DNA of 61,188 nt from an uncultured Candidatus Saccharibacteria bacterium (GTDB lineage: Bacteria; Patescibacteriota; Saccharimonadia; Saccharimonadales; Saccharimonadaceae): positions 1 through 61,188 of the forward strand of contig CAYUCN010000001.1 of the NCBI GenBank assembly GCA_964443395.1, read 5' to 3'. The position numbers were made by a program, and so were the translations under genes. The notes beneath the pieces were generated by a model that was not told the origin of the DNA, did no database searches, and was given only the letters and a program-made list of their open reading frames with translations. Positions 18,756 to 44,788 of this stretch are shown here, one piece after another. How positions within the stretch are numbered: position 1 is the first letter of the stretch; the number at the start of each line of letters is the position of its first letter.

Positions 18756-19634
18756 ATGCCCGGTCCCGGAGGATTCGGTGGCCCTGGTGGTTTTGGTGGT
18801 TTTGGTGGATTCGGTGGCCCTGGTGGTCATGGCGGAATGGGTCCGCCACCACCACCTCCACCCCCGCCTTGCGCGCCAATGTGCGCTGGTGGCCATCCCG
18901 GCCACAGCAGTGGCGGCATTGGTCAACACGATGACCCGCCATCTCCGCCCCCTAGCAACACTCGCCCTCACAAACCCCAGTTTTTCAGGAGCGAACAGCA
19001 GTACGCCATTGCCATTATCATCGGTCTGCTCGCCGCTCTGCAAGCTAGCACCATGGTCGTCTCCAACATCCTTGGCAGTAAACTCTGCCAAATCGGCCCT
19101 ATTCGGTTTGACAGCGGTATCGTGCTGTTCCCATTGACCTATATCGTCACCGATCTCACCGTCGAAGTCTTTGACGATCGCATCGCCAATCGCATCGACC
19201 TCTTTACCTGTTTCTGCAACATTATTGCACTAATCAGCTTCAAAATTGCCGATCTCATCCCCGCAGCCGCCGGTTCTGGCAGCGTACAATTTGGCGTCGC
19301 GCTCGGGTTATCTACCCGCGTGATGCTGGCCAGTACCATCGCCTATTACGTTAGTCATCGGATAGACGTCAAAGTCCATTGGCAACTCTTCGGCCTCACC
19401 AAAATCCACCAGCACAAATTCCGCAGTTTCGTAAGCTCAATCATCTCCAGAATTCCTGACTTAGCCCTTTTTAATCTCATTGCCTTCTGGGGGCGCCTCG
19501 GACTGTTGCAACTGCTCTGGAACTTCATCAGCAGCTACATTCTGGCAACTTTCGTCGAGCTCATCTTGATTATCCCCGCCGGCTGGCTAGTTAATAGTCT
19601 CCGCCGCAATCTCCAAAACACACCCAATACCTAA
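18756..19634 (+). CDS. yhhQ: Queuosine precursor transporter (YhhQ/VUT family) with Gly/Pro-rich N-extension
   Basis: VSNILGSK, GIVLFPLTYIVTDLTVEVF, RVMLASTIAY, RSFVSSIISRIPD..LF..IAF; adjacent to tgt. Confidence 0.85.
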   Translation: MPGPGGFGGPGGFGGFGGFGGPGGHGGMGPPPPPPPPPCAPMCAGGHPGHSSGGIGQHDDPPSPPPSNTRPHKPQFFRSEQQYAIAIIIGLLAALQASTMVVSNILGSKLCQIGPIRFDSGIVLFPLTYIVTDLTVEVFDDRIANRIDLFTCFCNIIALISFKIADLIPAAAGSGSVQFGVALGLSTRVMLASTIAYYVSHRIDVKVHWQLFGLTKIHQHKFRSFVSSIISRIPDLALFNLIAFWGRLGLLQLLWNFISSYILATFVELILIIPAGWLVNSLRRNLQNTPNT

Positions 19635-19709
19635 CCACCTCTCGCTTCAGCCTCCCCGCTCTGGGGAGGTTTTTCTATTACATACCCCAAAATGTGTTAT
19701 AATATACGC

Positions 19710-20987
19710 ATGGAATTTATCGTTGAGAAAACTTTACCCAACGGTCTTGGCCGCGCCGGTATCATTAAAACCGCCCACGGCGAAATCAAAACCCCAGCTT
19801 TTATGGCCGTCGGGACTCATGGCTATGTACGTTTTCTCTCTAGCGCCGATTTGCATGACATTGGTGCTCAAGCTATGCTCTCTAACGGCTACCATCTTCG
19901 CCGTCAATCTCCAGCTATCGCCCAAGCTGGCGGTCTCGCCCAATGGCAACCCATCGACCAGCCCAGCAGTCAGGCGCCCGAACAAGATAGCTCACCTCAT
20001 CGTCCAGACGGCCTCTCACCCGCCCCCTGGTTTGGCCCCACTCTTACCGACAGTGGCGGCTTTCAAGTCATGTCACTTGGCTCCGGCCTCGGCAAAGTCG
20101 TTTCTATGGAGAAAGAGCGCCACATTACCAATACCGCTCACACCGAGCGCCTTGCTCACATCACCGAAGACGGCGTCCACTTTACCGACCCTTTTGACGG
20201 CCAACCAGATTTTATCAGTCCTGAAGAATCTATGCAAATCCAATGTCGCATTGGTGCTGACATCCATATGGCTTATGACGAGCTTACCTCTCTCGCCGAC
20301 ACCTACGAATATAACATCGAAGCCATGGCACGTACCGAACGCTGGGCTGAACGCAGCCTGCGCGAACACCTCAAACACCGCGACGACCTCGGTTACCGCC
20401 AAAATCTTTACGGTGTTTTACAAGGTGGTCGCTGGGAAGATCTCCGCCGCCGCACTGCCCGCAATCTTGCTAAAATGTCCGTCGATGGCGTAGAATTCGA
20501 TGGCTTCGGTCTGGGCGGCGCCTTTCTTAAAGAAGACCTTGGCGACATCCTCCGCTGGTGCAATGAAGAGCTACCCTTAGAGAAGCCTCGGCATCTCCTT
20601 GGTCTCTCTCATCCCGACGACATCTTCATTGGTACCGAAATGGGCGCCGACACCTTTGACTGTGTTGCCCCTATGCGCGAAGCTCGTCATGGCAAAATTT
20701 ACACCCTAGACGGCAATCTCAACCTCCGCCAATTCCGCGACGTTAGCCGTTCACTCGACCCTGGCTGCGATTGTCCTACCTGTCGCGCCGGCTGGACCCT
20801 TGGCAGCCTCCGCGCGCTTTGGCGTTCTGGCGACTCTGACAAAAAATCTAAATTCTACCGCCTCGCCTCTGCCCATAACCTTCGCTTTATTATCCGCCTC
20901 ACCGAGAACATCCGCGCCTCTATCCTACAAGGCGACTTTAATCAGTACAAAATCGCTTTCCTTACACGCTATTATGCTCAAAAATGA
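19710..20987 (+). CDS. tgt: tRNA-guanine transglycosylase
   Basis: HGEIKTPAFMAVGT, TDSGGFQ, GVLQGG, KPRHLLG, GADTFDCV, zinc site CDCPTC..H. Confidence 0.95.
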   Translation: MEFIVEKTLPNGLGRAGIIKTAHGEIKTPAFMAVGTHGYVRFLSSADLHDIGAQAMLSNGYHLRRQSPAIAQAGGLAQWQPIDQPSSQAPEQDSSPHRPDGLSPAPWFGPTLTDSGGFQVMSLGSGLGKVVSMEKERHITNTAHTERLAHITEDGVHFTDPFDGQPDFISPEESMQIQCRIGADIHMAYDELTSLADTYEYNIEAMARTERWAERSLREHLKHRDDLGYRQNLYGVLQGGRWEDLRRRTARNLAKMSVDGVEFDGFGLGGAFLKEDLGDILRWCNEELPLEKPRHLLGLSHPDDIFIGTEMGADTFDCVAPMREARHGKIYTLDGNLNLRQFRDVSRSLDPGCDCPTCRAGWTLGSLRALWRSGDSDKKSKFYRLASAHNLRFIIRLTENIRASILQGDFNQYKIAFLTRYYAQK

Positions 20988-23023: not shown

Positions 23024-24667
23024 TTATCTCATCACACATCGTATTGGCAACCCCAGTGTTGCTGCATTAGAAAAACTCTGATTCGTCTGAGCAGCACCTG
23101 ACGTAATAAGCATATATGCTTTCTTCTTTCCATTAGGCTGTTCAGAAGCAGCAGCCGTAGATGAATAATATATAGCATTCTGAGATGCAAATGCTATCTG
23201 AGTGCTCACCTGTCCGGCAGTAACGAAATAATATGGAGCCACACGTACATCAACGTCATCGATTCTAGGGTCTGCTGCAAAAAGCCCATTAAAAGACCCG
23301 GCAGTTGTCACATCTTTGCCAGATAAGGGAAGGTTCCAGCCGCTCGGACATATACTGCCGCTAGCATTACTCTCCGCGGTGAGATCCTTGCCAGTACCAT
23401 TAGTAGCTGCAATAAAATTATAATATTTTCCTACAGCATAATGCTCGTAAGCTTGCGCGCTTAAGGCCGGAGCAAATGCAGAATACATTCTGCATGGTAT
23501 ATAATCTGATGTCATATCGCCATAATACCCTGGTGTCTTTGTACAACTCATTTTACCGTCGTTGCTAATGTACGAAGTCGCAGCAATAAAATCTTTATCA
23601 TATGTCTTAATCCAAGAAGAATCAATTTTGAAGGCTGGTATATCAGAAGTATTGACTTCCGACGCTAATTTCCATCCAAAACCAGTGCACGCAGAAAGGC
23701 TATTTGGATATTGACTCATGATACAGTTCTGCGATATGGTTGGATTAGCTAATACGTACTTTCCAGGATCGTAATAATAAGCATCTGAATCGGAACTTAT
23801 CCAATTGGATAGCGGATCAGTAATCTTAGTTCCTCCGCCATCGTAATCTAAATTTTGTGTCATCCAACATAGTCCGTCAGATTGTCTAGCAACCCAATAC
23901 CATTTATTATCACGAGTATCTTTCAGTCGGCCCTCGGTACCGATTGGAATAGTATTGCATTGAGCTTTTGTAAATCCCTGCATATTAGTATAGTTACCAA
24001 ACTGATTCCAATTTGCCACTTCCTCCACCCCCGCCACGGCAGAAAGCAGTATTCCAGTAGTATAATGTCCTGGTGTCGCATTGGCTCCAAACTTAGTAGC
24101 AAAGTTAATGGTAAAGTTTCTGGTTTCTCCTGTGGACGTAGAAGAATATGCTGGGTTTAGTGCTGTAGTAGCACTATCTGGTACTGGATTATACTTTAAG
24201 TTCTCTGGTGTTGCTCCTGTACTATCTACCGCATATCCCCAAGTATTATCCGTGAACTCACTTGTTGGTGTATCTACCTTTACAAAGTCTACTGTAAGGC
24301 TTCCATTTGTGAGTTTATTCGTACTTCCAGGAGCCGTTTGTACATATACATTATATCCATCTACATTAGCTGTAGTAACTGTAAACCCACTACTTATATA
24401 GTTTACTTGTCCTGTCTTAGAATTATTCGTTAATGTATTCGCATCACCATCCATCCTTAGCGATACACTCATTCCGTCTGCTTGTGTACTAATCCCTTCT
24501 TCCGCATAAGCACTTCCATTACTACCTATACCACCATTCATACTATTGCTAAGCCCAGTAGGATTAATACATATCCCGCCTAACAAAAGCAAAGCAAGCA
24601 TGCAACCAATTGGAATACTATGAACAATTTTTCTTCGTTTAAAGTTATTATTCTTTTTATAGCGCAT
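23024..24667 (-). CDS. Surface protein: signal peptide, WxL-like domain, FISUMP (Fib_succ_major) domain
   Basis: DTRDNKWY..CWMTQNL, GKYYNF, SICPSGWNLP, C-terminal IRCV; AAGGAGG RBS. Confidence 0.85.
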   Translation of the reverse strand: MRYKKNNNFKRRKIVHSIPIGCMLALLLLGGICINPTGLSNSMNGGIGSNGSAYAEEGISTQADGMSVSLRMDGDANTLTNNSKTGQVNYISSGFTVTTANVDGYNVYVQTAPGSTNKLTNGSLTVDFVKVDTPTSEFTDNTWGYAVDSTGATPENLKYNPVPDSATTALNPAYSSTSTGETRNFTINFATKFGANATPGHYTTGILLSAVAGVEEVANWNQFGNYTNMQGFTKAQCNTIPIGTEGRLKDTRDNKWYWVARQSDGLCWMTQNLDYDGGGTKITDPLSNWISSDSDAYYYDPGKYVLANPTISQNCIMSQYPNSLSACTGFGWKLASEVNTSDIPAFKIDSSWIKTYDKDFIAATSYISNDGKMSCTKTPGYYGDMTSDYIPCRMYSAFAPALSAQAYEHYAVGKYYNFIAATNGTGKDLTAESNASGSICPSGWNLPLSGKDVTTAGSFNGLFAADPRIDDVDVRVAPYYFVTAGQVSTQIAFASQNAIYYSSTAAASEQPNGKKKAYMLITSGAAQTNQSFSNAATLGLPIRCVMR

Positions 24668-24970
24668 ACTTGCCCTCCTTGGTTTAGTTTTACATAAACC
24701 CTTAAAGTAGTGCTGCAGAATATTTAGAGCATCAAAAACTATGCTTGAGTTTTATTCTTCTATAGAAGATATATTATAGAATAGATCTTTATATCATAAG
24801 CCTCAATGAGTTATATACATAGATATATGACATAAAGGAATACTATGATATGTCATATATACTCATTTTACTTTGCTAAAAGACTTCTTCTGAACAGTAT
24901 CTCCTATAATCTTTCCTCAAGATTTATTGCTTCTTAGTTTTTGTATATAAGTAATAGAGTTTACCCTAAA

Positions 24971-25116
24971 TACAAAAACAGCACCACAAGGGTGTTAAAG
25001 CAATCACTGAGAGACCTGTCGGTTCACCAATAATTAGCGCCTTATGGTGCTGTCCTCACGGTGAAAACGACGCAGATTTCCTAACAAAAATCCGACAAAC
25101 AATGATTGCTTTAACA
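24971..25116 (-). ncRNA. Structured leader RNA upstream of FISUMP gene, copy 1
   Basis: Starts just after TAGGCG-17-TATAAT (25150-25122); P1 TGTTAAAGCAATCATTG/CAGTGATTGCTTTAACA; loop ACAGCACCATAAGG complementary to tail CCTTGTGGTGCTGT; U-tract. Confidence 0.7.
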
Positions 25117-25232
25117 ATTCCATTATACCAAACTTTCGCGCCTGCGCCTAGTCTTGTAAATAACAATAATCATTATATAACATTCTTCATTCCCCGCCCT
25201 CTCCTCCTACTTAAGTATAGGAAAAGGTATAA

Positions 25233-26009
25233 TTATCTAGCGACACAGCGGACGGAGCTGCCGTCGTAGCGATAGAGGCTGCCGGACGGGGTAAAGTTAC
25301 TAATATTGAAGCTCAAGAGGTATGCGTTGTAGGAATCGATGGCTGTAGAGGACCAATAGTACCCGCTGGAGTTAGCGTAGTTCAGAGAGCTATTATTGAC
25401 ATATCCGCCAAAGAAGAAACTAAGTGGAGTTTGAGTTAATTTGCCACCGTTACTACCTATACTATAAGTTGTAGTTAGTTTACCAAAAGGCTTTTGGTTA
25501 GCATCAGTATTGTTGTTAGTAGGTAATTGCCAGCCCTTGGGGCAAATGCTAGATGGGGCGTTTCCACTAGTAATCTTAGCATCGCCCGTACCAGCCGTAG
25601 CTGCAAACCAAGAATAATGTGCGCCATAGGTAGTATTGTTATTATAGTACACCCTAGACTGATAAGTGTCATTGTTAGAAAAGTACTGTGGGGTATCATT
25701 AGCTGGAGTTTTATCTAAAGCTACGGATGCAGGTAGATAGTAATTGCCTGTAACGTCAGAATCATCCGGAGTAAGCAGCTTGCTGACAATTCTTAGGTTT
25801 TGGGTCATCCAACAGTTACCATCAGCCAACTTGGCAATAGTATAAGTACTGCCATCCCTAGAATCAGTCAATGTCTTAGTAGGTACAGTAGTAGCACTAG
25901 CAGCTGGTGTAGCTTGGCTATTGCAAGCTGACGGGTTCATATCTTGCATATAGACTAGTTGATCCCAAGTTTTAGCTGTCTCCTGCGCTCCCGCGGCGAT
26001 ACCCATCAC
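25233..26009 (-). pseudogene. 5'-truncated FISUMP gene (no signal peptide) with DGR-like variable C-terminus
   Basis: Close paralog of the C-half of 32544-34109 (KTWD.LVYMQDMNPSAC, DGNCWMT, SICPKGWQLP, SVRCVAR); no RBS or secretion signal. Confidence 0.7.
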
Positions 26010-26097
26010 AACAAGATAAGAAGTCCTTACATGCCGCAGCTTCCAATTTTATATTTTTAGACTATCCAAGACCACCAGTTTCGTGATACAATAGAAA

Positions 26098-26248
26098 TGT
26101 TTAAACAGTTTATCGAATACAACAAGCCTCAGACTTTTATTATAGTCTACAGCTTTCACCACGGAAACAGCACCATAAGGTGGCAATTCGGTGAATCTGT
26201 ATGGTTTGTCGATAAGCTGTTTAAACACCCTTGTGGTGCTGTTTTTGT
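26098..26248 (+). ncRNA. Structured leader RNA upstream of FISUMP gene, copy 2
   Basis: TGATACAAT just upstream; P1 TGTTTAAACAGTTTATCGA/TCGATAAGCTGTTTAAACA; TTCACC/GGTGAA stem; same loop-tail complementarity. Confidence 0.7.
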
Positions 26249-26358
26249 ATTTAGAAATAATTATAAAAATGGCAAAACGCGCTATAAACGCATAAGCTAT
26301 GCCATCTTTTTGATACCCACAATCTCACCACACCCAAACCATAAACAGGAGGAGATTA

Positions 26359-27795
26359 ATGCTAAAATTACAAAATACCAAACATAAACTAGGAATGACG
26401 ATATGTTCTATCGGAATAATCAATCTTTCCTTTTGGAGTTTTCTTAACCTTAGTTATGCTCCAAAATACGCCCATGCCACCGAAGACACCAAAACCATCG
26501 ACGACATCAAATATATGCAAGAAATGTCTCCGCACGTCTGTGAATCTATGAAAGAATCCACTGCTACAGTAGATAATCAAAAACGACTAATCGACCATCG
26601 CGATGGTAAAAGCTATTGGGTAGCAAAGTTTAAGGATGGTAGATGCTGGATGACACAAAATCTCGATTTAGGCCTCTGGAAAGGAGATAATGAAACCGGT
26701 AGTGGCAGTATACTAACTAGTGCAGATTCCGATATAATTAGTGACTGGACTTCAACTACTGGAGCTTCGACATTATGGACGGGGAGCCTCGATAATCCTA
26801 ATATAATAAAATATTATGATCCAGGAAATAAATACTGCACCAATAATAGAACGGACAAATGCGATTTAATTACCAGTAATAATAACGGCCATGACAGTCA
26901 AGGTAATTATTATAGTTGGGGAGCAGCGACAGTCGGTACGACTTCTAATATGAATAACGATGGTGATATTACGTCTTCTAGTATTTGCCCTAAGGGTTGG
27001 AAATTACCGCTAAGTGGAGCACGCTATAGTAACGGCATCTATTCTAACGATACCGTAAGTGGATCATTTAAATACTTAATGACTCATCAAGGTATTACGA
27101 CGGATGATGCAGCAGCTAGCTCCGCCTTGCTTTCTGCGCCATTATATTTCATTTATAGCGGATACGTTACCGACAATCTTCTAGGCGGCGTTGGTTCTGG
27201 CGGCCATTATTGGTCATCTACAGTTACCAACACTATTAGCATATATAGCTTAGTATTCATAGGTAGCTCCGCCAATCCATCCAATAACAGTATTCGTTTT
27301 AGCGGACATTCTATCCGCTGCGTGAATAGCGACACTTTTTATGATTGGCAAGCCCCAGAAGAAGATAACGCTAATATAAATGTCACTATACCTACAATAT
27401 TAACCGTAGAAGCCTCAAGTAATGTAGATCCTAATATAACTCCTAATAATATTACTGATGGTACTATTACCGCTACAGTAAGCAGCAATACAGAATACAA
27501 TATATTCTTAAGCGCCGACCAACCTAATCTAATTAATAGTAAGAACCCAGAAGGACCTAATATCCCCGCCAACATTAATGTATCTCCAAATACTAATGCT
27601 TGGGCTATCAAGGATGACAGTACAGGCAATACCTATAAAGCCATCAAAACTGCTACCGATACTTTCTATAATACTAAAACTACAGACACTCTAGGCAATG
27701 ATATCTATACCTATGGCCTCGGCATCTCCATTGCACCCTCGTTGCCTGCTGGTACTTATAGTACTACCGTCACCATCACCGCCTCTACGAAATGA
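26359..27795 (+). CDS. Surface protein: signal peptide, FISUMP domain, C-terminal WxL-like domain
   Basis: DHRDGKSY..CWMTQNL, GNYYSW, SICPKGWKLP, YWSST, SIRCV; ends PAGTYSTTVTITA. Confidence 0.85.
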   Translation: MLKLQNTKHKLGMTICSIGIINLSFWSFLNLSYAPKYAHATEDTKTIDDIKYMQEMSPHVCESMKESTATVDNQKRLIDHRDGKSYWVAKFKDGRCWMTQNLDLGLWKGDNETGSGSILTSADSDIISDWTSTTGASTLWTGSLDNPNIIKYYDPGNKYCTNNRTDKCDLITSNNNGHDSQGNYYSWGAATVGTTSNMNNDGDITSSSICPKGWKLPLSGARYSNGIYSNDTVSGSFKYLMTHQGITTDDAAASSALLSAPLYFIYSGYVTDNLLGGVGSGGHYWSSTVTNTISIYSLVFIGSSANPSNNSIRFSGHSIRCVNSDTFYDWQAPEEDNANINVTIPTILTVEASSNVDPNITPNNITDGTITATVSSNTEYNIFLSADQPNLINSKNPEGPNIPANINVSPNTNAWAIKDDSTGNTYKAIKTATDTFYNTKTTDTLGNDIYTYGLGISIAPSLPAGTYSTTVTITASTK

Positions 27796-27852
27796 TAACT
27801 AAATAAACTACGTACGTAGTCTTTCTGGAGCATCCGAAGATTGCAAAGCCAT

Positions 27853-28123
27853 AAGTCTCTAGCACTTTCACTATAAGTGAGCGTTTTCAAAATAAACGGA
27901 TATAAGCTAGACCTATGCTATACAATTTTAGCGAGCATAGACCACCTTCTTTGCGAGTAATGTATATTCCTGACGCAGCCGACAGGTTCGCCCGTAGGGC
28001 GGTTCTGCCGGACTGCCAGAGTATGACATTACGAACAAAGATGGCATGAGATAAAATTCGTATAGCATAGGTCTAGCTTTTTGTAACGTTGCCGGTGAAC
28101 ATCAGCGAAAGTGCTAGAGATTT
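27853..28123. repeat. MITE/REP-like foldback element, family A copy 2, with nested hairpin 27904-28079
   Basis: Same ends as 14721-14862; inner perfect 20-bp IR AAGCTAGACCTATGCTATAC. Confidence 0.75.
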
Positions 28124-28677
28124 TATTTATAGTACACCCTACCCTCCACTCTAATATCAGCATACGCCGGCTCCAAATTATGTTCTTTCAGATAGCGCAA
28201 CACCCTATCCGCATCTTCCGCCGTCACCGCCGTATCTCTATCCGTATTCACTTTTAGGTAAGTATTATATCCTTCCAAATCCACATATAATTCCCTGCTC
28301 ATCCCCGTCGGTAGAATCACCTGCGTAATCGTATAGCCTAAATCTTGCATATCTTGTTCTAGCTGCGCAATGTAACTTTTTGTCCGGCTAGAAATCTGCC
28401 CGCGGTTGTCTTCATCCACAATAGTCGCCCGCATAATATATTCTGCCGTCTGAGTTTTATTTTCGCTTTCGTATTGCTCGTACACATTTTTACCAGTCGT
28501 ATACGCCAGCAACGCCAAAACCGCCAACACCAACGCTGCCATTACTACCGACGTCTTATGCTTACGCCTCTGCCGCTCATGTTCTTGCAGCCGTTCCGAG
28601 TCCGACTCTGCCCGTTCGCGCTCTGCTACTATCGTCTGACCGCGCTTTAGCCGCTTCATTTTATTTTGCCCACGCAT
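28123..28677 (-). CDS. ftsQ: FtsQ-like cell division protein
   Basis: Basic N-terminus, single TM, C-terminal YADIRVEGRVYYK; follows murG. Confidence 0.6.
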   Translation of the reverse strand: MRGQNKMKRLKRGQTIVAERERAESDSERLQEHERQRRKHKTSVVMAALVLAVLALLAYTTGKNVYEQYESENKTQTAEYIMRATIVDEDNRGQISSRTKSYIAQLEQDMQDLGYTITQVILPTGMSRELYVDLEGYNTYLKVNTDRDTAVTAEDADRVLRYLKEHNLEPAYADIRVEGRVYYK

Positions 28678-28686
28678 TTTTACTTT

Positions 28687-30018
28687 TTATTTCCTTTTCG
28701 TCTTCGCTCTCTTCACTTGCTTCTTCTGTATCCTCTTTGCATTCTTATCTTCCACTTTCTTCAATTTCGCTTGCTCCTTTTCCGCTACTCTCTGCTCGCT
28801 CACGTCTATAAGGATTTGCGCCAACCTCTCCGCCGCATCCGGCGTCGCCTGCGCATGTAGCTTCTCTGCCAAAGATCTCCGCACTTTTGGCGACCGTACT
28901 AAACGTCGTATCTCATTTAGTAAGATTTGCGGCTTCCTGCGCATCTTCTCATCCGGTACCATTACTACTGCCTCTAAATCTTTCAATTTCTCCGCATTCT
29001 TCAGCTGATGCGCCCCCGGCAGCCGCTCAAACGGCACTAATATCACCGCCTTCTTTAGCGCTGCCAACTCCGCAATCGTCGTCGCCCCCGCCCGGCTCAC
29101 TACTACATCCGCCGCCCCCATCAGCTCATGCATCGCCGAGTTAAACTCCCACATCCTAAAGTTTGACTGCAGCTTTGCCTTATCCCACTCCTCATACCGC
29201 TTTAAATCCACCACTTCTTCATAATATTTTCGCCCCGCCACTAATCCCACGCTCGTATATTTCAATAACTCTGGCAAAATTTCATGCACCGCCTGGTCAA
29301 TATTCTGCGACCCTTGGCTACCCCCCGTTATTACCACTAGCGGACGTTCTGAATCATAGCCAAAACCCTTCTTCAAATTTCTCTGCTGCGCTTCCGTCAC
29401 TACTTTAAACTCCGGCGCCACTGGCACACCTACGTTTACCACACAGCCGCCTTCTACCTTTAATCCATCCCAGCCGCTCGCAATCACCGCCGCATGCTTC
29501 ATTAACACTCTGTTTGCTAAACCTGGCACCATATCCGACTCATGTACTACATATGGTATCTTAAACCAACTCGCCACTAAGCCCACCGGCAGCCCTACAA
29601 ATCCCCCTTTCAAAAAGATCACATTAGGACGCTTACTCGGCAACAATAACCTCCAAAAACTCTGCATAATCCCCCCTACAAACCCAAAGAATCCAACAAT
29701 ATTTCCAAAAATCAAATCCTTAAACACTATTCCTAGATGTTTCAGCCAATCTTTCCATGTCCACCCCGCATACCGACGGAACTTCCCTGACCAGATCTTC
29801 CTTACCCGTATATATGGAATCCGTCGGTTTCCTTCTTGTGCATGCGACCCCCAACGTACTCCGATTTCTGTTGTAATTTTTACAACATTTTTATAATACT
29901 TCCTATCCGTCCAAAATTCCACCTTCGTTCCGGGCAGTTTTTTCAATAATTCTCTCACCACCGCCACTGCCGGCGTAATATGACCACCGCTGCCACCACC
30001 TACTACTAAAACCTTCAT
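28687..30018 (-). CDS. murG: Lipid II N-acetylglucosaminyltransferase MurG
   Basis: GGGSGGHITP, KGGFV, HESD..PGLAN, GGSQGS, SRAGA, HQLKNA. Confidence 0.95.
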   Translation of the reverse strand: MKVLVVGGGSGGHITPAVAVVRELLKKLPGTKVEFWTDRKYYKNVVKITTEIGVRWGSHAQEGNRRIPYIRVRKIWSGKFRRYAGWTWKDWLKHLGIVFKDLIFGNIVGFFGFVGGIMQSFWRLLLPSKRPNVIFLKGGFVGLPVGLVASWFKIPYVVHESDMVPGLANRVLMKHAAVIASGWDGLKVEGGCVVNVGVPVAPEFKVVTEAQQRNLKKGFGYDSERPLVVITGGSQGSQNIDQAVHEILPELLKYTSVGLVAGRKYYEEVVDLKRYEEWDKAKLQSNFRMWEFNSAMHELMGAADVVVSRAGATTIAELAALKKAVILVPFERLPGAHQLKNAEKLKDLEAVVMVPDEKMRRKPQILLNEIRRLVRSPKVRRSLAEKLHAQATPDAAERLAQILIDVSEQRVAEKEQAKLKKVEDKNAKRIQKKQVKRAKTKRK

Positions 30019-31199
30019 TCCATTCTCCTTCTCAGTATATTAACATTCGCACTCGCTAATTTCTCCTTGCGTGGCTCTCTGCTCGTATAGCAAGATAGTT
30101 GTAAAGCAATCCCCAACGCCGCCGCCGTGAACAACATACTTGTACCGCCATAGCTAAGTAACGGCAAAGTGATCCCTGTCAACGGCACCAATCCCGTCAT
30201 CGCCGCAATATTCACAATTACATGTGCCGCCGCCCACGCAAACACCCCCACCACCACTAGCGACTCTTCATCATTTTCTAGATAGTTTGCCGTCCGGAGA
30301 AGCCTCAATAATAACGCTGTAAAGCATCCTATTACCAATAGCAATCCAAAGAATCCAAACGTCTCCCCCATAATCGCAAATACCGAGTCGTTAATCGATT
30401 CCGGCAAATAACCCGTCGCCTGCACACTGTTTCCAATCCCCACCCCAAACATACCACCTGTGCCTATCGCAATCATCGCGTTCTCGATATGATACGCATC
30501 ACTCGAATCTTCCGAGCTAAACGTCATAATTCTTTCCAACCTATGCGGAGACACCACAATCGACGCCACTCCCGCCGCAAGTGCCACCGCCACTACTATC
30601 AAGAAATACTGCATTTTTACCCCGCTCATATATAACATCGCCAAAATAATCGCTGCAATCGCAATCCCCGTACCTAAATCCTTCTGCAGAACTATCACCA
30701 ACCCCAAACTCAGCACGCTCACCACCGCAAATGGTATCCAAAAATCACTACTATTTAATTTCCCTTCTGCCTTACGTTCTGCCATCAGTTGCGCTAAGTA
30801 CAATACTAGACCTAACTTCAGTATCTCCGCCGGCTGCAGACTAAATCCCTGCACTACTATCCATCTACATGCTCCTAGCTCACACTTCGCAAAGCGACTT
30901 CCTACTGCCGCCAATATCGCTAACAATACACACAGTGCTATCCCGCCAAACATCACTAGCTTTGCATACTTACGCATATATTTATACGGTATCTTAAACG
31001 CCAATACTAATACCACCAACGACATAATCACATTCCGTAATTGCTGGATAAAAAACGTATTCTCGCTCAAATTCGTCCCATACACCGAGTTCATCACATT
31101 CGCCCGCATCGGCCCAATCGCATAAATCACAATCAGCCCTACACACAGCAGGACTAGCGTCAAAGCTCCAATTACCCGATCACTCTTATGTCTGCGCAT
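30015..31199 (-). CDS. ftsW: SEDS family peptidoglycan polymerase FtsW
   Basis: GACRW, QPAEILK, QKDLGT, YLPESINDSVF, PLTGITLPLLSYGGTS; start 31199 after GGAGGAG. Confidence 0.93.
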   Translation of the reverse strand: MRRHKSDRVIGALTLVLLCVGLIVIYAIGPMRANVMNSVYGTNLSENTFFIQQLRNVIMSLVVLVLAFKIPYKYMRKYAKLVMFGGIALCVLLAILAAVGSRFAKCELGACRWIVVQGFSLQPAEILKLGLVLYLAQLMAERKAEGKLNSSDFWIPFAVVSVLSLGLVIVLQKDLGTGIAIAAIILAMLYMSGVKMQYFLIVVAVALAAGVASIVVSPHRLERIMTFSSEDSSDAYHIENAMIAIGTGGMFGVGIGNSVQATGYLPESINDSVFAIMGETFGFFGLLLVIGCFTALLLRLLRTANYLENDEESLVVVGVFAWAAAHVIVNIAAMTGLVPLTGITLPLLSYGGTSMLFTAAALGIALQLSCYTSREPRKEKLASANVNILRRRME

Positions 31200-32307
31200 G
31201 GTCTCCTCCAGAATCTTCAATTTCTTGATTCGAGTTCTCGCCTCGTACAAAATCATCTACTTGCTGCATCCTCTCTTGGCTCACAATCCCACCTTGTATC
31301 GCCAAGAACACCCCCACAATCGCAAATACTCCCGCAATCACCCAAAACCTCATCACAATCTTCGCTTCCCCCCAACCTTGCGCTTCTAGGTGATGATGTA
31401 TCGGCGCCGAGATAAACAATTTCTTATGAAACACCTTCTTCCAAAAAATCTGTATCAGCGACGACCCCGCCTCCACCACAAACAAAATTCCAATAATCGG
31501 CAACAAGAAAAACGCATTCGTCATCATCGCCACCACACCTAACCCCGCACCCAGCGCAAACGACCCCGTATCCCCCATCATAAACCGTGCCGGCGGCACA
31601 TTAAACCAAATATACGAAAGTAACCATCCCGCCACCGTCAAACAAAACCCCGTTAGCATCCATTGCCCCTGAAACAGCGCAATAATCCCATACGCTCCAT
31701 ACGCAATCATCGCCAATCCCCCCGCCAGCCCATCTAATCCATCCGAAATATTTACCGCATTGCTTGTCGCTACTACCGCAAATGCAAAAATCAGCATCAT
31801 CCCCACCGCACCTACTTGGAAGTCTCCAAAAAATGGAATCTCGATACTCGTCCAGCCCAATTTACAAGCAAACCACCACCCCAGCCAAATCCCAATCGAA
31901 GTAATCATCGCAAATTTCACCGGCGCTCTTAAGCCTGCCGCACCCTTACCGCTACCAAAAATATTAATAATATCATCAATAAAGCCTACAATACTGCCTC
32001 CCAAAAATCCCGCCAACGGCAACCAAGTCTGCTCACGGTTTAGATTACAAATACAAGTCACCACCGTTACCGTCACCACACCAATCACCCCCGCCATCGT
32101 CGGGAAGTGCCGCGCAAACTTCTTAGCATGCAGCTTCGTCATCACAGGCAAAGCTTCGCCCGTTAAAGTCTCTTTCTTCTGTTTTTTCCAAAACTTATAT
32201 TTATAAGCAAAATAAGTATAGACTGGCGTCAAAAAAGTCGCCAAACAAAACGCCGACAGCGCCAAAAGCAAACCGTAAAATGTTTCGTTGTTCAACGTAT
32301 CGGTCAT
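31186..32307 (-). CDS. mraY: Phospho-N-acetylmuramoyl-pentapeptide transferase
   Basis: PTMAG, GFIDD, NAVNISDGLDGLA, MGDTGS, APIHHHLE. Confidence 0.96.
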   Translation of the reverse strand: MTDTLNNETFYGLLLALSAFCLATFLTPVYTYFAYKYKFWKKQKKETLTGEALPVMTKLHAKKFARHFPTMAGVIGVVTVTVVTCICNLNREQTWLPLAGFLGGSIVGFIDDIINIFGSGKGAAGLRAPVKFAMITSIGIWLGWWFACKLGWTSIEIPFFGDFQVGAVGMMLIFAFAVVATSNAVNISDGLDGLAGGLAMIAYGAYGIIALFQGQWMLTGFCLTVAGWLLSYIWFNVPPARFMMGDTGSFALGAGLGVVAMMTNAFFLLPIIGILFVVEAGSSLIQIFWKKVFHKKLFISAPIHHHLEAQGWGEAKIVMRFWVIAGVFAIVGVFLAIQGGIVSQERMQQVDDFVRGENSNQEIEDSGGDHAQT

Positions 32308-32543
32308 ACTAATCCTATTATATCACAAATCCGCCCGCTCTATGCATTTTTCGTCCCGCTCTCGTCCGCCGCACGCCCCGCACTAAGCCATGCTTACAAA
32401 AATATCGTAGCACCGCCGTCGACGTCCCCAAAATTCCACTAGCTTGTTTAATCGTATAGTATTCCCGCTCTTCCATAACCTCATTATAGCAGATTATGGC
32501 AGAGTCAGGAATATTAACTTAAGGTTTTTATATCCTTCTTATT

Positions 32544-34109
32544 TTAGCGAGCCACACAGCGGACGGAGAAGCCGAGGTAGCGATGGTAGTAGCTGGACGG
32601 GTTAACATTACCACTGGCGAAGCTCAAGTTGTATGCGTTAGTAGCCGCATTGGCCGTAGATGACCAATAGCGACCAAATACACCGACAGGGCTCATAGAG
32701 CCATCGGTGGCGAAACCTGCGTAAACAAAGCTGAGCGGAGCTGTCCTTAACTTTTCACTACCGTCTGCGTCACTACCAATATTATAAGCCGTAGTTAATC
32801 CGCTAAATGACTTTTGCTTAGCGTCAGTATTATTACTAGTAGGTAATTGCCACCCTTTAGGACAAATACTAGATGTGGCATTTTGATCTGCTGGTACTAT
32901 AGTAGTATTAGCTACATTCCCAGCATTGCCTGCATTACTGCTATTAGGAATAATATCAACATATGCTCCTTGTAGGCATGTTCCTGCTGTAGCAGCACAC
33001 CAAGAATAGTATGCTCCGTATTTCTTAGTATCAGGATTAGCTGGATTTCTGACTTGCTGGTTAGGATAAGTAGCTGTACTATTTTTGTCATTTACTTGGG
33101 TACTGCTAAACCCTCCATTTGTCGCTACAGGCAAAGTATAAGTCTTACTTATATCGGTAAATACACTCATATCCAAATCACTATCGTTAATAGTTAGCGT
33201 CGTTCCTCCTGGCAAAGCCAAGTTATCCGTCATCCAGCAATTACCATCAGCTAGTTTACTAATCGTATACTTATTACCATCTCTACTATCCGCAAGAGTC
33301 TTAGTAGGTACAGTAGTAGCACTAGCGGCTGGTGTAGTTTGACTACTACAAGCTGATGGGTTCATGTCTTGCATATACACTAGCTCATCCCAAGTTTTGA
33401 GTAGCTCTTTTGGTTCTATGGCTAATGACAATAGCACACTCGTAGTATAATGCCCACTAGGAATGTTATCGGAGAAGTTAGCAGCAAAGGATAACTTATT
33501 ACTAGTATCAATAGTATTATTAGTAGGAGTATCAGAAGCTAGTAAGCCTGTGCTGATGGTGGTACCTACACTTCCGTAAGCGGGCAAGGTGTAGTAGGTC
33601 ATGGAGTCTTCAGTAGCGTTCTCTGCTCCCCAGGCATAACCCCATGTGTTAGTAGGCATATTGCTACCTACTACACCGCCCGCTCCCGGAATGGTAGTAT
33701 TACCACCATCAAGCTTTAGTTCACTAGTACCATTACTACTAGCAGAGATTTGTAAGGTATATGATTCTACATTAGCAGCTTTGATCTTAATATTATGGCT
33801 TTTATAATTCACTCCGCTTTCTGCTAGTATCACATCCTCGATATTACCATCATCTACGATCAAAGCTGCTGATGTGTCATTAGTACTAGATGTTAACTCT
33901 GCGGCATAGGCTTTATTACTACTACCCATATTACCTAGACTATCATTCATACCATTACTAATACCATTACTAAACCCAGCAGGATTAAGTAAACTACATC
34001 CTAACAAAAGTAAGGCAAGTATGCAGCCAATGGGCATACTATGATATAGTAACTTATTACTATCTAGTATTCTTCCTTTATCCTTTTGATATTTCCTTAT
34101 TTGGCGCAT
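32544..34109 (-). CDS. Surface protein: signal peptide, WxL-like domain, FISUMP domain with DGR-like variable C-terminus
   Basis: DSRDGNKY..CWMTDNL, YGAYYSW, SICPKGWQLP, YWSST, GFSVRCVAR; inserted between ftsI and mraY. Confidence 0.87.
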   Translation of the reverse strand: MRQIRKYQKDKGRILDSNKLLYHSMPIGCILALLLLGCSLLNPAGFSNGISNGMNDSLGNMGSSNKAYAAELTSSTNDTSAALIVDDGNIEDVILAESGVNYKSHNIKIKAANVESYTLQISASSNGTSELKLDGGNTTIPGAGGVVGSNMPTNTWGYAWGAENATEDSMTYYTLPAYGSVGTTISTGLLASDTPTNNTIDTSNKLSFAANFSDNIPSGHYTTSVLLSLAIEPKELLKTWDELVYMQDMNPSACSSQTTPAASATTVPTKTLADSRDGNKYTISKLADGNCWMTDNLALPGGTTLTINDSDLDMSVFTDISKTYTLPVATNGGFSSTQVNDKNSTATYPNQQVRNPANPDTKKYGAYYSWCAATAGTCLQGAYVDIIPNSSNAGNAGNVANTTIVPADQNATSSICPKGWQLPTSNNTDAKQKSFSGLTTAYNIGSDADGSEKLRTAPLSFVYAGFATDGSMSPVGVFGRYWSSTANAATNAYNLSFASGNVNPSSYYHRYLGFSVRCVAR

Positions 34110-34178
34110 ACTTGCCCTCCTTTTGTAATAAATATATTTATTCCCCGGCGATACTGTAAGTTTTTAGGGTATCAAAAA

Positions 34179-34420
34179 ACAGGCTTTGATACATAATCTC
34201 AGTCTTGTTCTGCAAATATGGAATTATCTTTGCCTATCACGAGGCCCTTATGAGAAATCCTAAAATCTAGTAAAAGTCAGCGCAAGAGTTTGCGGAACTT
34301 TTACGGCGGCTTTAGCCGAAGATTCTAGGATTTCTCATCAGGCGATGAGTGATCCAGCAAATATAATTCCTATATTTGCGAAACAAGGCTCGCTATATGA
34401 TATATAACTATCAGGCCTGT
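34179..34420. repeat. About 240-nt imperfect foldback hairpin in the FISUMP leader
   Basis: ACAGGC/GCCTGT, AGTCTTGTT/AACAAGGCT, GCAAATAT/ATATTTGC, GGAATTAT/ATAATTCC, ATGAGAAATCCTA/TAGGATTTCTCAT. Confidence 0.8.
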
Positions 34421-34440
34421 CTTATTGAATTATCTCTAAC

Positions 34441-34592
34441 AACAAAACAGCACCGCTTAACGGTGTTAAGAAAGCTAAATGACAAGTCTCTGCTCACCAA
34501 GTAACTTAGCCGCAAGCGATGCTGTTTTATCCTGGCGAACAAAGCCGTATCATAAAAAGATACTTGCCGTTTTATATTTAGCTTTCTTAACA
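34441..34592 (-). ncRNA. Structured leader RNA upstream of FISUMP gene, copy 3
   Basis: TAGGCA-17-TATAAT (34626-34598); P1 TGTTAAGAAAGCTAAAT/ATTTAGCTTTCTTAACA; loop AAAACAGCATCGCTTGCGG pairs with tail CCGTTAAGCGGTGCTGTTTT. Confidence 0.7.
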
Positions 34593-34905
34593 ACTTCATT
34601 ATATCAAACTTTCACGCGCATGCCTAGACTTGTAAATGACTAACAATCATTACGTGGTATTTTCTCCTCCTACCCCACACCTCAAGATAATTGATTACAC
34701 AAGAAAATACCATACTCATCCATGTTAAAAACATAAATATATTAAAAATTTTATGTAAGATGGAATACTTAGTCTTATTACTTCCGAAACCGACTAAAAG
34801 AACCGTATAGTAAACCAATAAGTTATTATGATTTGATATAAGATATAATTACGTGTCGGTTGAGGGAGTGAGAAGACTAAGTATTCCATTCCTCTTCGCT
34901 AAAAA

Positions 34906-39819: not shown

Positions 39820-41127
39820 ATGGATACAGATTCCGAAAAACCAGCAACAACATCAGCCGATACCGCCGTAACGTCTGATACACTAGAGACAGCAGCCGAT
39901 GCAGCTCTTAATACGCTTGGTCAGATTGCTAATTCCGCTAATAGCGCCAGTGACAACCAAGATATCACTAATGAATCTTTCGATACGTCAGATAATACCG
40001 CTAACGAATCTTCTCCCAAATCTTCCGAAGCAGACTCTACAAATTCTAGCCTACCCGACGACGTCGCTAACATGCAAATCAACGACCACGCCGCCGCCGT
40101 CGCCGGCAACGATGACGACACCGAGCCCGAACCAACTTACTATCGCTCTGATAATCCGGCCTTCGATGTCTTCCATTGGGCTAACGAAATCGACGAAGTT
40201 AAAAATAATGTCTCCGTAGAATTATTCTTATTTAACAAAAATTATACACCTTTCCGCGTCCGTTATTCCGATAAGCTTACTGCCAGCGTCAAAGCCATGT
40301 TTATGCAAGAAGCCACTGGCTATATCATCAAAGAAGCCGACAAAGGTCTCGAATGTCGTGAATATGAAAAATCAGATGGTGAAGACCGCGTCATCTACCG
40401 CACTAAACTCAGCAACGTCGGTCGCGCCGAGACTTTAATTCATCTTATCGAACATGAATATCGCAACATCGACTCCTGGAACGATCATGTCGACGAATTT
40501 AAAAAAGTTAAAGGCATCATTGCTAAATTTACTTACCCTGGCGAAGACGGCGAGACTAAAGTCTTCTACATTGCCAAAGCTCTCTCTCCCTCCTCCGCTC
40601 TCAAAGGCGGCACCAGCTGGGAACTAAATGGTGAGAGCTTCGAACCTTTCTCTGCCGAAGTCGCCCTTAAAATGCCCGACGATAATCAAGTTGCCATCAT
40701 CGACGGCACCGTTGTCATCTTTAATCAAAGCAAATTCGAAAACTTATTTCAGTACGACTACAAATCTCAAGTTATTGCCGACGAAAAAGCCAAAGAACTA
40801 ACAAATAAATATAAGCTCTCCTTCGCCGAAGGCCTCACGCTTAATACGCTTTTGCAGGATAAAAAGCCTCTTGTCAAAAAACTCCAATCCCTCGATATCG
40901 CCGCCGAAATGCCCCAAGACAAACTCATCGACTACGCCGACGAAATGCAACTCGAACTCATGACCGACGACGACGGCTCCATCATCATCATGGACGATAA
41001 AGATCTTACTATGTTCGTCAATCTCTTAGCCGAAGATTACTTCATCTCGCCCGTCAACGGTCGCCGCTACGAAATCAAATCTAAAAAACTCCTCTCCGAA
41101 CCCGAAGGAGAGCCGCCACGAGGATAG
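39820..41127 (+). CDS. DUF4868/KwaB-like protein with acidic N-terminal extension
   Basis: VIFNQSKFENLFQY and FVNLLAEDYFISPVNGRRYE resemble DUF4868 (Kiwa KwaB); GGAGG RBS. Confidence 0.6.
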   Translation: MDTDSEKPATTSADTAVTSDTLETAADAALNTLGQIANSANSASDNQDITNESFDTSDNTANESSPKSSEADSTNSSLPDDVANMQINDHAAAVAGNDDDTEPEPTYYRSDNPAFDVFHWANEIDEVKNNVSVELFLFNKNYTPFRVRYSDKLTASVKAMFMQEATGYIIKEADKGLECREYEKSDGEDRVIYRTKLSNVGRAETLIHLIEHEYRNIDSWNDHVDEFKKVKGIIAKFTYPGEDGETKVFYIAKALSPSSALKGGTSWELNGESFEPFSAEVALKMPDDNQVAIIDGTVVIFNQSKFENLFQYDYKSQVIADEKAKELTNKYKLSFAEGLTLNTLLQDKKPLVKKLQSLDIAAEMPQDKLIDYADEMQLELMTDDDGSIIIMDDKDLTMFVNLLAEDYFISPVNGRRYEIKSKKLLSEPEGEPPRG

Positions 41128-44179: not shown

Positions 44180-44788
44180 TCAAAACTTCAACAAGTCTAT
44201 CAGCCCATCTACGTCCGTAGTAGGCCCATCATCTAATACATTATCACCATAAACTCTACGTAACCTTTTTGCCTCCTCGCTAGCTAATGCTATTGTTTCA
44301 ACTGTTACTGTTTCATCGGCAATAAGCTTTGCATTCTTTCCCCTCAATAAGCCTAAATCCTCCGCCATTCTCTGTGCATTCTTTCTATCCCGAGCTTCAG
44401 CCGTCACCAACATCTTATGACACAAGAGCCACACCTCAAATGATTCATGCGAGCATAAAGGAATAATATGTTTTTTACGAGCCTCTCCCAATAATTCTTC
44501 AAACGATACACGGTTATTCGCATTCTTACAGTGTTCGTCTATGTCGCAAACAATAAAAACACTATCATAATTACCATTACTCATCATCCTTAGTGCAACA
44601 CGCACCAAATCCTTGAAATGCTTCACCGACTCCACTATAATCACATCCTTCGACAACCGATTGAGTCGCTCAAAATATGATGTCTCGGTTATCCTACCAT
44701 CGGTTACCACCAAATAACGATTGGCCTCCTCCCTAGAACACCGATCACGCATAATTTTAATGGTCCTATTATGCATCAACATCATCAT
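44180..44788 (-). CDS. rloB: RloB/AbiLii-like TOPRIM-fold protein
   Basis: YLVVTDG..TE.SYF, VFIVCDID, SHESFEVWLLCH, P.TDV..L; overlaps the end of the ATPase gene. Confidence 0.8.
   Translation of the reverse strand: MMMLMHNRTIKIMRDRCSREEANRYLVVTDGRITETSYFERLNRLSKDVIIVESVKHFKDLVRVALRMMSNGNYDSVFIVCDIDEHCKNANNRVSFEELLGEARKKHIIPLCSHESFEVWLLCHKMLVTAEARDRKNAQRMAEDLGLLRGKNAKLIADETVTVETIALASEEAKRLRRVYGDNVLDDGPTTDVDGLIDLLKF

What the first reader, a model, noticed from the sequence alone, without database searches (positions are those of the whole stretch)
24971..34592. Unrecognised ~150-nt switch-like RNA ahead of all three full-length FISUMP adhesin genes
Seen: three copies (24971-25116 minus, 26098-26248 plus, 34441-34592 minus), each starting 5 nt after a -10 box. 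All have the same architecture: a 17-19 bp P1 (TGTT(T)AA...TTAA(A)CA), an inner stem, a small variable hairpin, and a TTCRCC/GGTGAR stem. The loop of that stem (ACAGCACCATAAGG; AAAACAGCATCGCTTGCGG in copy 3) is complementary over 14-19 nt to the tail just after P1 (CCTTGTGGTGCTGT; CCGTTAAGCGGTGCTGTTTT), which ends in a U-tract. P1 sequences differ strongly between copies yet keep pairing, and the non-Watson-Crick pairs are G-U on the sense strand, which points to selection on RNA. Inference: a loop-tail helix longer than one turn is hard to form with P1 closed, so there may be two alternative folds, one terminator-like. That would make it an attenuator or riboswitch (or a stand-alone sRNA) controlling surface lectins. 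I do not recognise it as a named riboswitch or ribozyme class.
Basis: partly seen in the sequence, partly recalled or inferred. Interest (0 to 1): 0.9.

Follow-up and report, generated by a model that had tools for sequence, protein, structure and literature searches.

The report
Leader RNA switch for adhesin choice
The three repeats belong to a folded leader RNA family, not in Rfam, that precedes almost every surface-protein gene of a large family in gut Saccharibacteria; it likely keeps those genes off by early termination, and the read-through messages carry stretches complementary to the ribosome-binding site of the one leader-less family member, which they would likely silence.

Summary
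The genome holds 58 copies in two classes. All 33 full-length FISUMP genes with intact upstream DNA have one. Homologues occur in 67 of 151 genomes of the genus and sparsely elsewhere in the order. There is no Rfam match. Stems covary strongly and favour G-U over A-C, so selection acts on RNA. The 11-16 bp loop:tail helix always abuts the U-tract, competes with the P1-P4 fold at similar energy, and the tail often has a second partner downstream. This fits a transcription attenuator; a ligand riboswitch is unlikely, and the trigger is unknown. It ranks 1 of 794, 1 of 268 and 2-19 of 639 start regions in three genomes, was found by prediction in a fourth, and target and sites change together between lineages. 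Here the master is also the likely expression locus for 22-25 silent cassettes. No RNA data were available. The scan had already noted this family on other DNA (e1-5245392).

The parts
25122..25130 (-). extended -10 box, copy 1
   Evidence: sequence
24974..25115 (-). copy 1 leader switch: inferred +1 G 25115; P1 25100-25115 with 24994-25009; P4 25060-25065 with 25023-25028; loop L 25040-25053; tail T 24978-24991; U-tract 24974-24978
24943..24959 (-). antisense site 1 against the master-gene 5' UTR, just after the U-tract
   Evidence: (predicted duplex -23.5 kcal/mol)
24835..24848 (-). antisense site 2 (covers master SD and start codon), in the loop of a long AU-rich hairpin
   Evidence: (-26.6 kcal/mol)
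24730..24741 (-). second U-tract and 3' arm of a possible second terminator, copy 1
   Evidence: inferred
24706..24715 (-). L', downstream partner of the tail, copy 1
   Evidence: (z -4.9)
24611..24622 (-). antisense site 3 inside the coding region (HSIP codons)
   Evidence: (-22.9 kcal/mol)
23024..24667 (-). full-length FISUMP-family surface protein gene (547 aa) after copy 1
   Evidence: (E 6.5e-4, below cut-off)
25233..26000 (-). start-less FISUMP-domain cassette; 5' box about 25980-26000, 3' box about 25198-25256
26084..26092 (+). extended -10 box, copy 2
   Evidence: sequence
26099..26246 (+). copy 2 leader switch: P1 26099-26116 with 26209-26226; L 26167-26180; T 26229-26242; U-tract 26242-26246
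26269..26311 (+). possible second terminator (arms 26269-26274 and 26300-26305, then U-tract); its 5' arm is taken by tail plus U-tract in the read-through fold. No master-antisense site was found in this copy.
   Evidence: inferred
26359..27795 (+). full-length FISUMP-family gene (478 aa) after copy 2
   Evidence: no Pfam hit at 0.001
34598..34606 (-). extended -10 box, copy 3
   Evidence: sequence
34444..34591 (-). copy 3 leader switch: P1 34576-34591 with 34465-34480; L 34513-34525; T 34447-34459; U-tract 34444-34447
34148..34423 (-). downstream leader domain of copy 3: long-range helix 34415-34423 with 34173-34184 plus U-tract, a long inserted hairpin, and L' at 34148-34156
   Evidence: (L' p 0.07)
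34033..34043 (-). weaker antisense site in the coding region (HSMP codons)
   Evidence: (-17.0 kcal/mol)
32544..34109 (-). full-length FISUMP gene (521 aa) after copy 3
   Evidence: PF09603 E 8.7e-11

Best explanation
The element is a conserved two-state leader RNA in front of dozens of paralogous surface-protein genes; it likely stops transcription at its U-tract when the internal loop pairs with the tail, and when read through, the message would likely both make its adhesin and block translation of the single leader-less 'master' paralogue by pairing with its ribosome-binding site. Shown: promoter-like spacing with +1 G closing P1; covarying P1/P4 and loop:tail helices; a helix end fixed at the U-tract; two folds of similar energy; a second tail partner (L') about 47-51 nt before the end of the start codon in 55 of 108 leaders; complementarity to the master start region in six genomes. 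Inferred: (1) P1-P4 folds first; (2) the emerging tail nucleates on loop L and must zip to the U-tract, which needs P4 to open at least partly because the spare linkers are short, and success releases a ~145-nt RNA (OFF); (3) if polymerase escapes first, the tail is captured by L' or by the arm of a second terminator, leaving the SD free (ON); (4) the ON RNA occludes the master SD and start codon, so the cell would trade its default adhesin for an alternative. The trigger of read-through is unknown; a kinetic or stochastic race, possibly biased by pausing or a protein, is my best guess. Step odds: functional RNA 0.97, cis gate 0.75, termination 0.6, trans pairing 0.7, direction 0.55.
For: 58 copies, and 33 of 33 full-length FISUMP genes with upstream DNA are led by one. 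Loop:tail is 11-16 bp and ends at the U-tract in 30 of 30, 24 of 24 and 29 of 29 copies. Class A loop:tail: 97.9% of cells paired, 43 double changes against 14.3 shuffled, 0 of 500. Class B read-through fold: 18 of 31 pairs compensate, 88 cells against 27.3. A pattern specifying neither P1 nor promoter returned 61 Saccharibacteria hits, of which 59 have P1 and 59 a -10 box. The two folds lie within 10 kcal/mol in 26 of 30, 23 of 24 and 20 of 29. An antisense oligo pairing close to a U-tract causes release in vitro (PMC3351154, passages), so a distant strand can stand in for the hairpin arm. No Rho was found in this 92% complete genome. The master start region ranks 1 of 794 (class A), 1 of 268 (G073, partial) and 2 of 639 (G131, first 45 nt). 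In G164 one exact sense copy was predicted and found at a leader-less family gene; its mean z of -2.72 beats the best of 542 other start regions, -1.64. A different master sequence in G131/G144/G055 is matched by different sites (12 of 12 pairs in G144 and G055), and cross-lineage pairing is near background.
Against: There are no expression or termination data. In class A the non-terminating fold has the lower energy in 29 of 30 copies (28 of 29 in relatives), so OFF as the default rests on a pseudoknot or on kinetics that were not modelled. Six of 61 homologues have a C-A mismatch one pair from the U-tract. A standard scan finds no terminator here. L' is significant in only about half of the leaders. 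A second terminator passes a strict test in only 12 of 26 and 8 of 22. The class B switch helices are invariant, so they give no covariation. The master link is partial: 20 of 30 class A and 8 of 25 class B leaders have a site by a loose rule whose cross-controls give 5 of 35 and 8 of 30; class B ranks the master 80 of 794 and the long G131 window 19 of 639; un-normalised energies did not rank it first; window copy 2 has no site. There is no G-U excess inside the G131 sites (2 G-U, 14 A-C from one recurrent mismatch). No exact master motif was found in G023, G045, G085 or G094. Single copies in mobile islands precede unrelated small membrane proteins, where no master logic was tested.
Confidence: 0.5

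Rival explanations
1. Same pairing, opposite direction: the abundant master mRNA 5' end is the regulator, binding nascent paralogue RNA to promote the second terminator, block early translation or trigger RNase III decay, in the manner of pT181-type antisense attenuation but from another locus.
For: Up to three sites per paralogue, including early coding sequence. In copy 1, site 1 lies in a hairpin that holds an arm of the possible second terminator. RNase III is present.
Against: The duplex covers the master's own SD and start codon. A unit with promoter, both sites and a terminal U-tract but no gene follows (G000 C12 about 24575-24853), which fits site-bearing RNA as the regulator. Most leaders in relatives are short and lack a second terminator. 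The two directions need not exclude each other.
Confidence: 0.17
2. The leader does not terminate. It is a pseudoknotted 5' cap that shields the message from RNase J, while tail:L' pairing sets translation.
For: +1 G is paired at the end of a 14-26 bp P1. The pseudoknot is favourable before penalties (median -14 to -21 kcal/mol). RNase J is encoded in the window. In some short leaders L' could alternatively cover the SD.
Against: The helix end is fixed at a U4-6 tract in all copies scored. Spare linkers as short as 1-4 nt cannot span 14 bp without opening P4.
Confidence: 0.12
3. Each copy is a constitutive terminator that yields a stable ~145-nt sRNA, and the genes behind it are a silent reservoir used by recombination.
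For: Both ends would be buried in helices. The genome has a cassette system.
Against: The led genes keep their SD, start codon and N-terminal hydrophobic segment. Pairings across the U-tract covary. The true silent cassettes lack starts and have their own boxes. No reverse transcriptase or IS110 recombinase was found.
Confidence: 0.08
4. A metabolite-sensing riboswitch or protein-bound attenuator, in which a ligand locks the P1-P4 fold.
For: A multi-stem domain upstream of a terminator-like helix, two near-equal folds, and enriched TTNTTT.
Against: Junction and loop sequences are poorly conserved; P1 identity between copies is 42-52%; the helix count varies. A structure-recognising protein remains possible as the trigger within the best explanation.
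Confidence: 0.07
5. The shared master-like site is an operator for a DNA-binding protein, or the whole element is a DNA repeat whose pairings come from quasi-palindrome repair.
For: The site sits just downstream of the master promoter. There is no G-U excess inside the trans sites in G131.
Against: The sites are antisense near elements (27 exact 8-mer hits; 28 one-mismatch copies against one exact sense copy in G164), sit in hairpin loops, and change with the master between lineages. The cis helices show a strand-specific G-U bias.
Confidence: 0.06

Closest known systems
Transcription attenuators with intrinsic terminators (riboswitch expression platforms, trp-type leaders)
   Same: 5' leader, competing folds, and a helix ending at a U-tract ahead of the gene.
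   Different: The terminator's 5' arm sits in the loop of another stem about 35-60 nt away, with nested helices in between; there is no local GC hairpin, no recognisable aptamer, and up to 58 diverged copies per genome.
Antisense-RNA-mediated attenuation of pT181/pIP501 (PMC5415839, passages seen)
   Same: RNA-RNA pairing linked to a leader that can terminate.
   Different: The partner here is another gene's mRNA start region, not a counter-transcript; an antisense extended -10 lies downstream of only 1 of 55 elements.
UTR-derived trans regulators and mRNA-mRNA pairing (Listeria SreA, Streptococcus mutans irvA-gbpC; recalled, from no call)
   Same: A leader or message acts in trans on another mRNA's 5' region.
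   Different: Many-to-one design across a paralogue family, sites also written into signal-peptide codons, and a target that is the family's own leader-less member.
Silent-cassette antigenic variation (Borrelia vls/vmp, Neisseria pilE/pilS; search listing and abstract starts)
   Same: One expression locus plus many start-less cassettes bounded by conserved boxes.
   Different: Combined here with an RNA-gated set of complete paralogues; recombination was not shown; the boxes were found in no other of 150 genus genomes.
Earlier scan note e1-5245392, 'Pseudoknotted terminator leader RNA family'
   Same: The same ~145-nt family in gut Saccharibacteria, with a loop:tail terminator-like helix gating surface-protein genes.
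   Different: The lines shown do not mention class B, the downstream tail partner, the master-antisense sites or the cassette system.

Membership tests
Any Rfam 15 family | covariance-model score at or above the gathering threshold | tested here: not met
   Whole window: only a tRNA. Permissive scans: best E 0.19 and 0.22, far below gathering.
Canonical intrinsic terminator | local GC-rich hairpin with a 3-8 nt loop | tested here: not met
   0 found in 24600-26420; a local 4-bp hairpin only, 6-9 bp in some distant homologues.
Canonical intrinsic terminator | helix ending directly at a U-rich tract | tested here: met
   30 of 30, 24 of 24 and 29 of 29 copies.
Canonical intrinsic terminator | RNA release at the U-tract | not testable with these tools
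   No RNA holder was listed; needs Term-seq or in vitro transcription.
Transcription attenuator | lies between promoter and regulated gene, with mutually exclusive folds | tested here: met
   alternative partners for the tail and for the class B GCGAG segment.
Transcription attenuator | a signal shifts read-through | not testable with these tools
   No trigger identified; no convincing trans L-like or T-like RNA in G131.
Metabolite riboswitch | conserved unpaired nucleotides forming a ligand pocket | tested here: not met
   High conservation only at +1 G and at paired L and T positions in 114 elements.
Metabolite riboswitch | ligand binding | not testable with these tools
   Needs in-line probing.
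pT181/pIP501 antisense attenuator | cis-encoded counter-transcript from a convergent promoter | tested here: not met
   Antisense extended -10 within 300 nt downstream of 1 of 55 elements; weaker promoters not excluded.
Leader-peptide attenuator | conserved upstream ORF with regulatory codons | not tested
   A 96-codon frame overlaps copy 2 only; not examined across copies.
Self-cleaving ribozyme | known catalytic fold or conserved core | tested here: not met
   No Rfam hit; no conserved unpaired core. Cleavage itself is untestable here.
Retron, DGR or IS110 bridge RNA | cognate reverse transcriptase or DEDD recombinase in the genome | tested here: not met
   No PF00078 or PF01548 match in a 92% complete genome.
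Trans-acting antisense regulator of translation | complementarity covering target SD and start codon, conserved with compensatory change | tested here: met
   met for class A and five related genomes, not for class B (rank 80 of 794).
Trans-acting antisense regulator of translation | measured repression of the target | not testable with these tools
   Needs reporter or toeprint assays.
Silent-cassette gene conversion system | start-less cassettes with shared 5' and 3' boxes and one expression locus | tested here: met
   26 5' boxes, one in frame behind a full N-terminus at a contig end; 29 3' boxes; 22 boxed cassettes.
Silent-cassette gene conversion system | observed switching at the expression locus | not testable with these tools
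   No DNA reads of this organism were listed.

The most novel reading that the evidence does not exclude
Gut Saccharibacteria choose which of dozens of host-binding surface proteins to display with an RNA-only circuit. Each paralogue is gated by a topologically limited loop:tail terminator whose outcome is a zipping race, and whichever message escapes silences the default master adhesin by mRNA-mRNA pairing written into its leader and even its signal-peptide codons. In this genome the circuit is layered on cassette switching at the master locus.
Probability: 0.35. Interest if true: 0.93.

Novelty: new variant of a known kind. Interest (0 to 1): 0.82.

Why it matters
How Patescibacteria regulate their life cycle and host attachment is described as virtually unknown, and no inducible expression system exists for them (PMC11665869, passages). 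This is a high-copy native regulatory RNA on their largest surface-protein family, and every step can be tested in vitro with short RNAs. If the terminator is really built from a loop and a distant tail, terminator finders miss a whole class. If the many-to-one antisense link holds, it is a bacterial route to exclusive surface-protein choice that needs neither DNA inversion nor a transcription factor.

Tried and rejected
RNA evidence: no RNA holder was listed and four host-labelled runs laid no reads, so this is no test. Single-sequence AlphaFold of the cassette protein failed (pLDDT 28.6) and no PDB relative was found, so the lectin fold is untested. Raw duplex energies favoured G-rich start regions and were replaced by shuffle-normalised scores. 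The 45-nt window was chosen after seeing G000 site 1 and the G131 leaders. One search was mis-registered by one column and repeated. In one search the printed L' strings are offset; distances refer to the L' start. The degenerate master pattern missed G000 itself and is uninformative; one search gave background-level hits. One class B copy was dropped (mis-delimited) and one (C33) was left out of those sets. Cross-paralogue loop:tail pairing as a general mechanism was rejected for G000 (cognate median -22.3, non-cognate -11.3), though G131 tails are nearly uniform. FISUMP presence does not predict the element: 140 of 151 genus genomes have FISUMP matches and 67 of 151 the element. Of six non-Saccharibacteria pattern hits, four lack P1 and promoter; two pass the model, and one of these precedes a FISUMP-type gene and is probably misbinned. 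Literature searches listed no description of this element; most subscription papers and all supplements of large ncRNA surveys were unseen and could hold it.
Full report
Observation. Each begins five bases after a TATAAT or TACAAT box preceded by TG, folds far better than shuffles (z -4.2, -6.1, -4.5), and has P1, inner stems, a loop L complementary to the tail T, and a U-tract. Rfam gives nothing at gathering level in the window except a tRNA; permissive scans of the region and of ten other copies give best E 0.19 and 0.22.

The family in this genome. A profile from the three copies finds 29 copies at E 1e-4 or better; the reversed genome gives best E 0.55. A descriptor scan adds a shorter class B with a 7-bp P1 and a 14-bp loop:tail helix. 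I count 58 elements: 30 class A, 26 class B and 2 variants. All 33 full-length FISUMP genes with upstream DNA have one. Of 51 downstream frames called, 44 resemble FISUMP-family frames, 6 are cut by contig ends and 1 is unrelated; 7 elements had no start within 400 nt.

Distribution. A covariance model hits 67 of 151 genus genomes, with only 19 candidates scored per genome. Deeper scans give 57, 40, 21, 5 and 4 copies in five genomes and 37 in 772 kb of G131. In the order, 6 of 150 other genomes have single weak hits. These keep the architecture and lie next to serine recombinase, integrase or DUF5659 genes, mostly ahead of small membrane proteins. In a phylum draw, 1 of 150 hits, in the same family. 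Although P1 and promoter were not in the pattern, 59 of 61 have at least 11 of 12 P1 pairs and 59 of 61 a -10 box. Two viral contigs also carry it. These sets overlap in part with the handle genomes, and kin are not independent.

Selection on RNA. Across 29 aligned class A copies the loop:tail helix is 97.9% paired, with 43 double changes against 14.3 in shuffles (0 of 500; the count of pairs with a double change is not significant, 144 of 500). In 14 class B copies the P1/P4 and read-through pairs show 18 of 31 compensating pairs and the loop:tail fold 3 of 23. G-U outnumbers A-C 38:3, 19:0 and 48:3 in loop:tail, and 23:4 and 21:1 in class A-type P1. These controls do not correct for phylogeny.

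Two states. The loop:tail helix is 11-16 bp and ends at the U-tract in every copy scored. The P1-P4 fold and the loop:tail fold differ by medians of -5.7, +6.1 and -8.8 kcal/mol (class A, class B, relatives). The P4 loop has a median of 23-26 nt and spare linkers as short as 1-4 nt, so a full 14-bp helix needs P4 to open at least partly; with polymerase on the 3' end, more than one turn cannot be threaded (inference). The tail has a second partner, L', downstream in 55 of 108 leaders at p 0.05 or less, at a median 47-51 nt before the end of the start codon. In class B an invariant GCGAG segment can pair upstream in the loop:tail state or downstream with the arm of a second terminator-like helix. 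A second U-tract with a helix passes a strict test in 12 of 26 and 8 of 22 leaders. A standard scan finds no terminator in 24600-26420, but an antisense oligo placed within 11 nt of the release point raises termination in vitro (PMC3351154, passages), so L can in principle act as the missing arm. One NusG and one RNase III were found, and no Rho. Sequence conservation in 114 elements is limited to +1 G and paired L and T bases, plus TTNTTT in 39 against 15.7 expected (the link to NusG pausing is recalled). That argues against an aptamer.

The master link. Past the U-tract, many class A RNAs carry sites complementary to the 5' UTR, SD and start codon of one family gene on contig C24 that has no element. 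Ranking every called start region by shuffle-normalised pairing puts it 1 of 794 for class A (mean z -2.69; background -0.16, sd 0.34) but 80 of 794 for class B. Un-normalised energies did not single it out. An orthologous leader-less gene is the only one among 27 FISUMP genes in 357 kb of G073 and ranks 1 of 268; there the sites lie in HSIP and YSIP codons. In G131 a leader-less gene with a different UTR is matched by different sites right after the U-tract: rank 2 of 639 for the first 45 nt and 19 of 639 for the long window. G144 and G055 orthologues pair 12 of 12 with one leader each. In 710 kb of G164 all 30 FISUMP genes were element-led. A search for the predicted sense motif then found one exact copy, on an unfetched contig, at the start of a leader-less family gene; its mean z of -2.72 exceeds the best of 542 others, -1.64. 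Masters pair within their lineage block and near background across it. Against: only 20 of 30 class A, 8 of 25 class B and 23 of 35 G131 leaders have a site by a loose rule with cross-controls of 5 of 35 and 8 of 30; G-U is not enriched inside G131 sites; four of five genomes had no exact motif. In the window, copy 1 has three sites, copy 3 one weak site and copy 2 none. Direction is not determined. The duplex covers the master SD and start codon, and a gene-less unit on C12 carries both sites, so I favour leader-to-master repression.

Cassettes. Twenty-six places carry a 21-nt box; 25 have unrelated upstream DNA and one, the master, is in frame behind a full N-terminus at a contig end. Twenty-two cassettes end in a shared ~55-nt box. 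The 25233-26009 frame in the window is one of them. No reverse transcriptase or IS110 recombinase was found; three tyrosine-recombinase matches were. The 5' box was found in none of 150 other genus genomes. This resembles Borrelia and Neisseria cassette systems (listing only); switching was not observed.

Comparison and verdict. It works like an attenuator coupled to a trans antisense regulator, but it fails membership in every Rfam family, in canonical terminators by hairpin shape, in riboswitches by conserved pocket, and in pT181-type systems by counter-promoter. Ten literature searches listed no description. Papers seen as passages only: PMC3351154, PMC11665869, PMC11109978 (no mention of Saccharibacteria; one other motif where a terminator loop may form a pseudoknot that prevents termination, the opposite sign to my model), PMC5415839 and PMC11661182 (FISUMP domain in 43 DGR targets). 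No supplements were read. No RNA data could be laid. Verdict: a real, uncatalogued RNA family; likely a termination gate; likely part of a many-to-one adhesin control circuit; trigger unknown.

Noticed in passing
window 25198-26000 (minus); G000 C24 1-666: Silent-cassette system: 22-25 start-less FISUMP cassettes with shared 5' and 3' boxes and one likely expression locus, whose contig breaks exactly at the 5' box.
   Followed up: partly
G000 C12 about 24575-24853 (+): A promoter followed by a ~280-nt structured unit with both master-antisense sites and a terminal U-tract but no gene; candidate stand-alone sRNA.
   Followed up: partly
L226, L222, L223, L225, L359 upstream of the master genes: Master promoters have a canonical -35 and share a spacer motif (TGCT-N-ATGC), unlike the CTAG-type -35 region of element promoters in G000; possible factor site.
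   Followed up: no
G131 (L179-L218): Nearly all 37 elements share one tail sequence while P1 and P4 differ, unlike G000; suggests concerted evolution or a factor reading L or T.
   Followed up: partly
L091-L096, L045, L178: Single elements in recombinase or integrase islands and a phage contig, ahead of small membrane proteins, often with a stronger local terminator hairpin; possible origin of the family in mobile DNA.
   Followed up: partly
window about 27905-28078; G000 C6 and C31: A 19-bp inverted repeat with arms 136-214 nt apart, ending in a T run, after FISUMP gene ends.
   Followed up: no
G000 C10, C12, C20, C27 upstream of cassettes: An 11-13 bp inverted repeat about 215 nt apart ending in a T run just before several cassette 5' boxes; possible small inserted element.
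   Followed up: no
window 34190-34390 (minus): A long, nearly perfect inserted hairpin in the leader of copy 3; similar insertions occur in G164 leaders.
   Followed up: no
G000 C19 1108-1673: Two divergent elements with the same P1 start, one expanded to 239 nt and one with only a local hairpin.
   Followed up: no
L113 660-1100: Tandem short FISUMP C-terminal segments upstream of an element-led gene, on a contig binned outside Saccharibacteria.
   Followed up: no
window 18756-20987: Vut_1 transporter next to queuine tRNA-ribosyltransferase, a queuosine salvage pair.
   Followed up: no
window 39820-41127 and 44769-48089: KwaB-like, AAA_21 and KAP NTPase genes, a probable defence cluster.
   Followed up: no
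G131 C1 near 240350 (+): A second leader-less FISUMP gene whose purine-rich start region may pair with the fixed DFFYY codons of element-led genes; seen by eye only.
   Followed up: no
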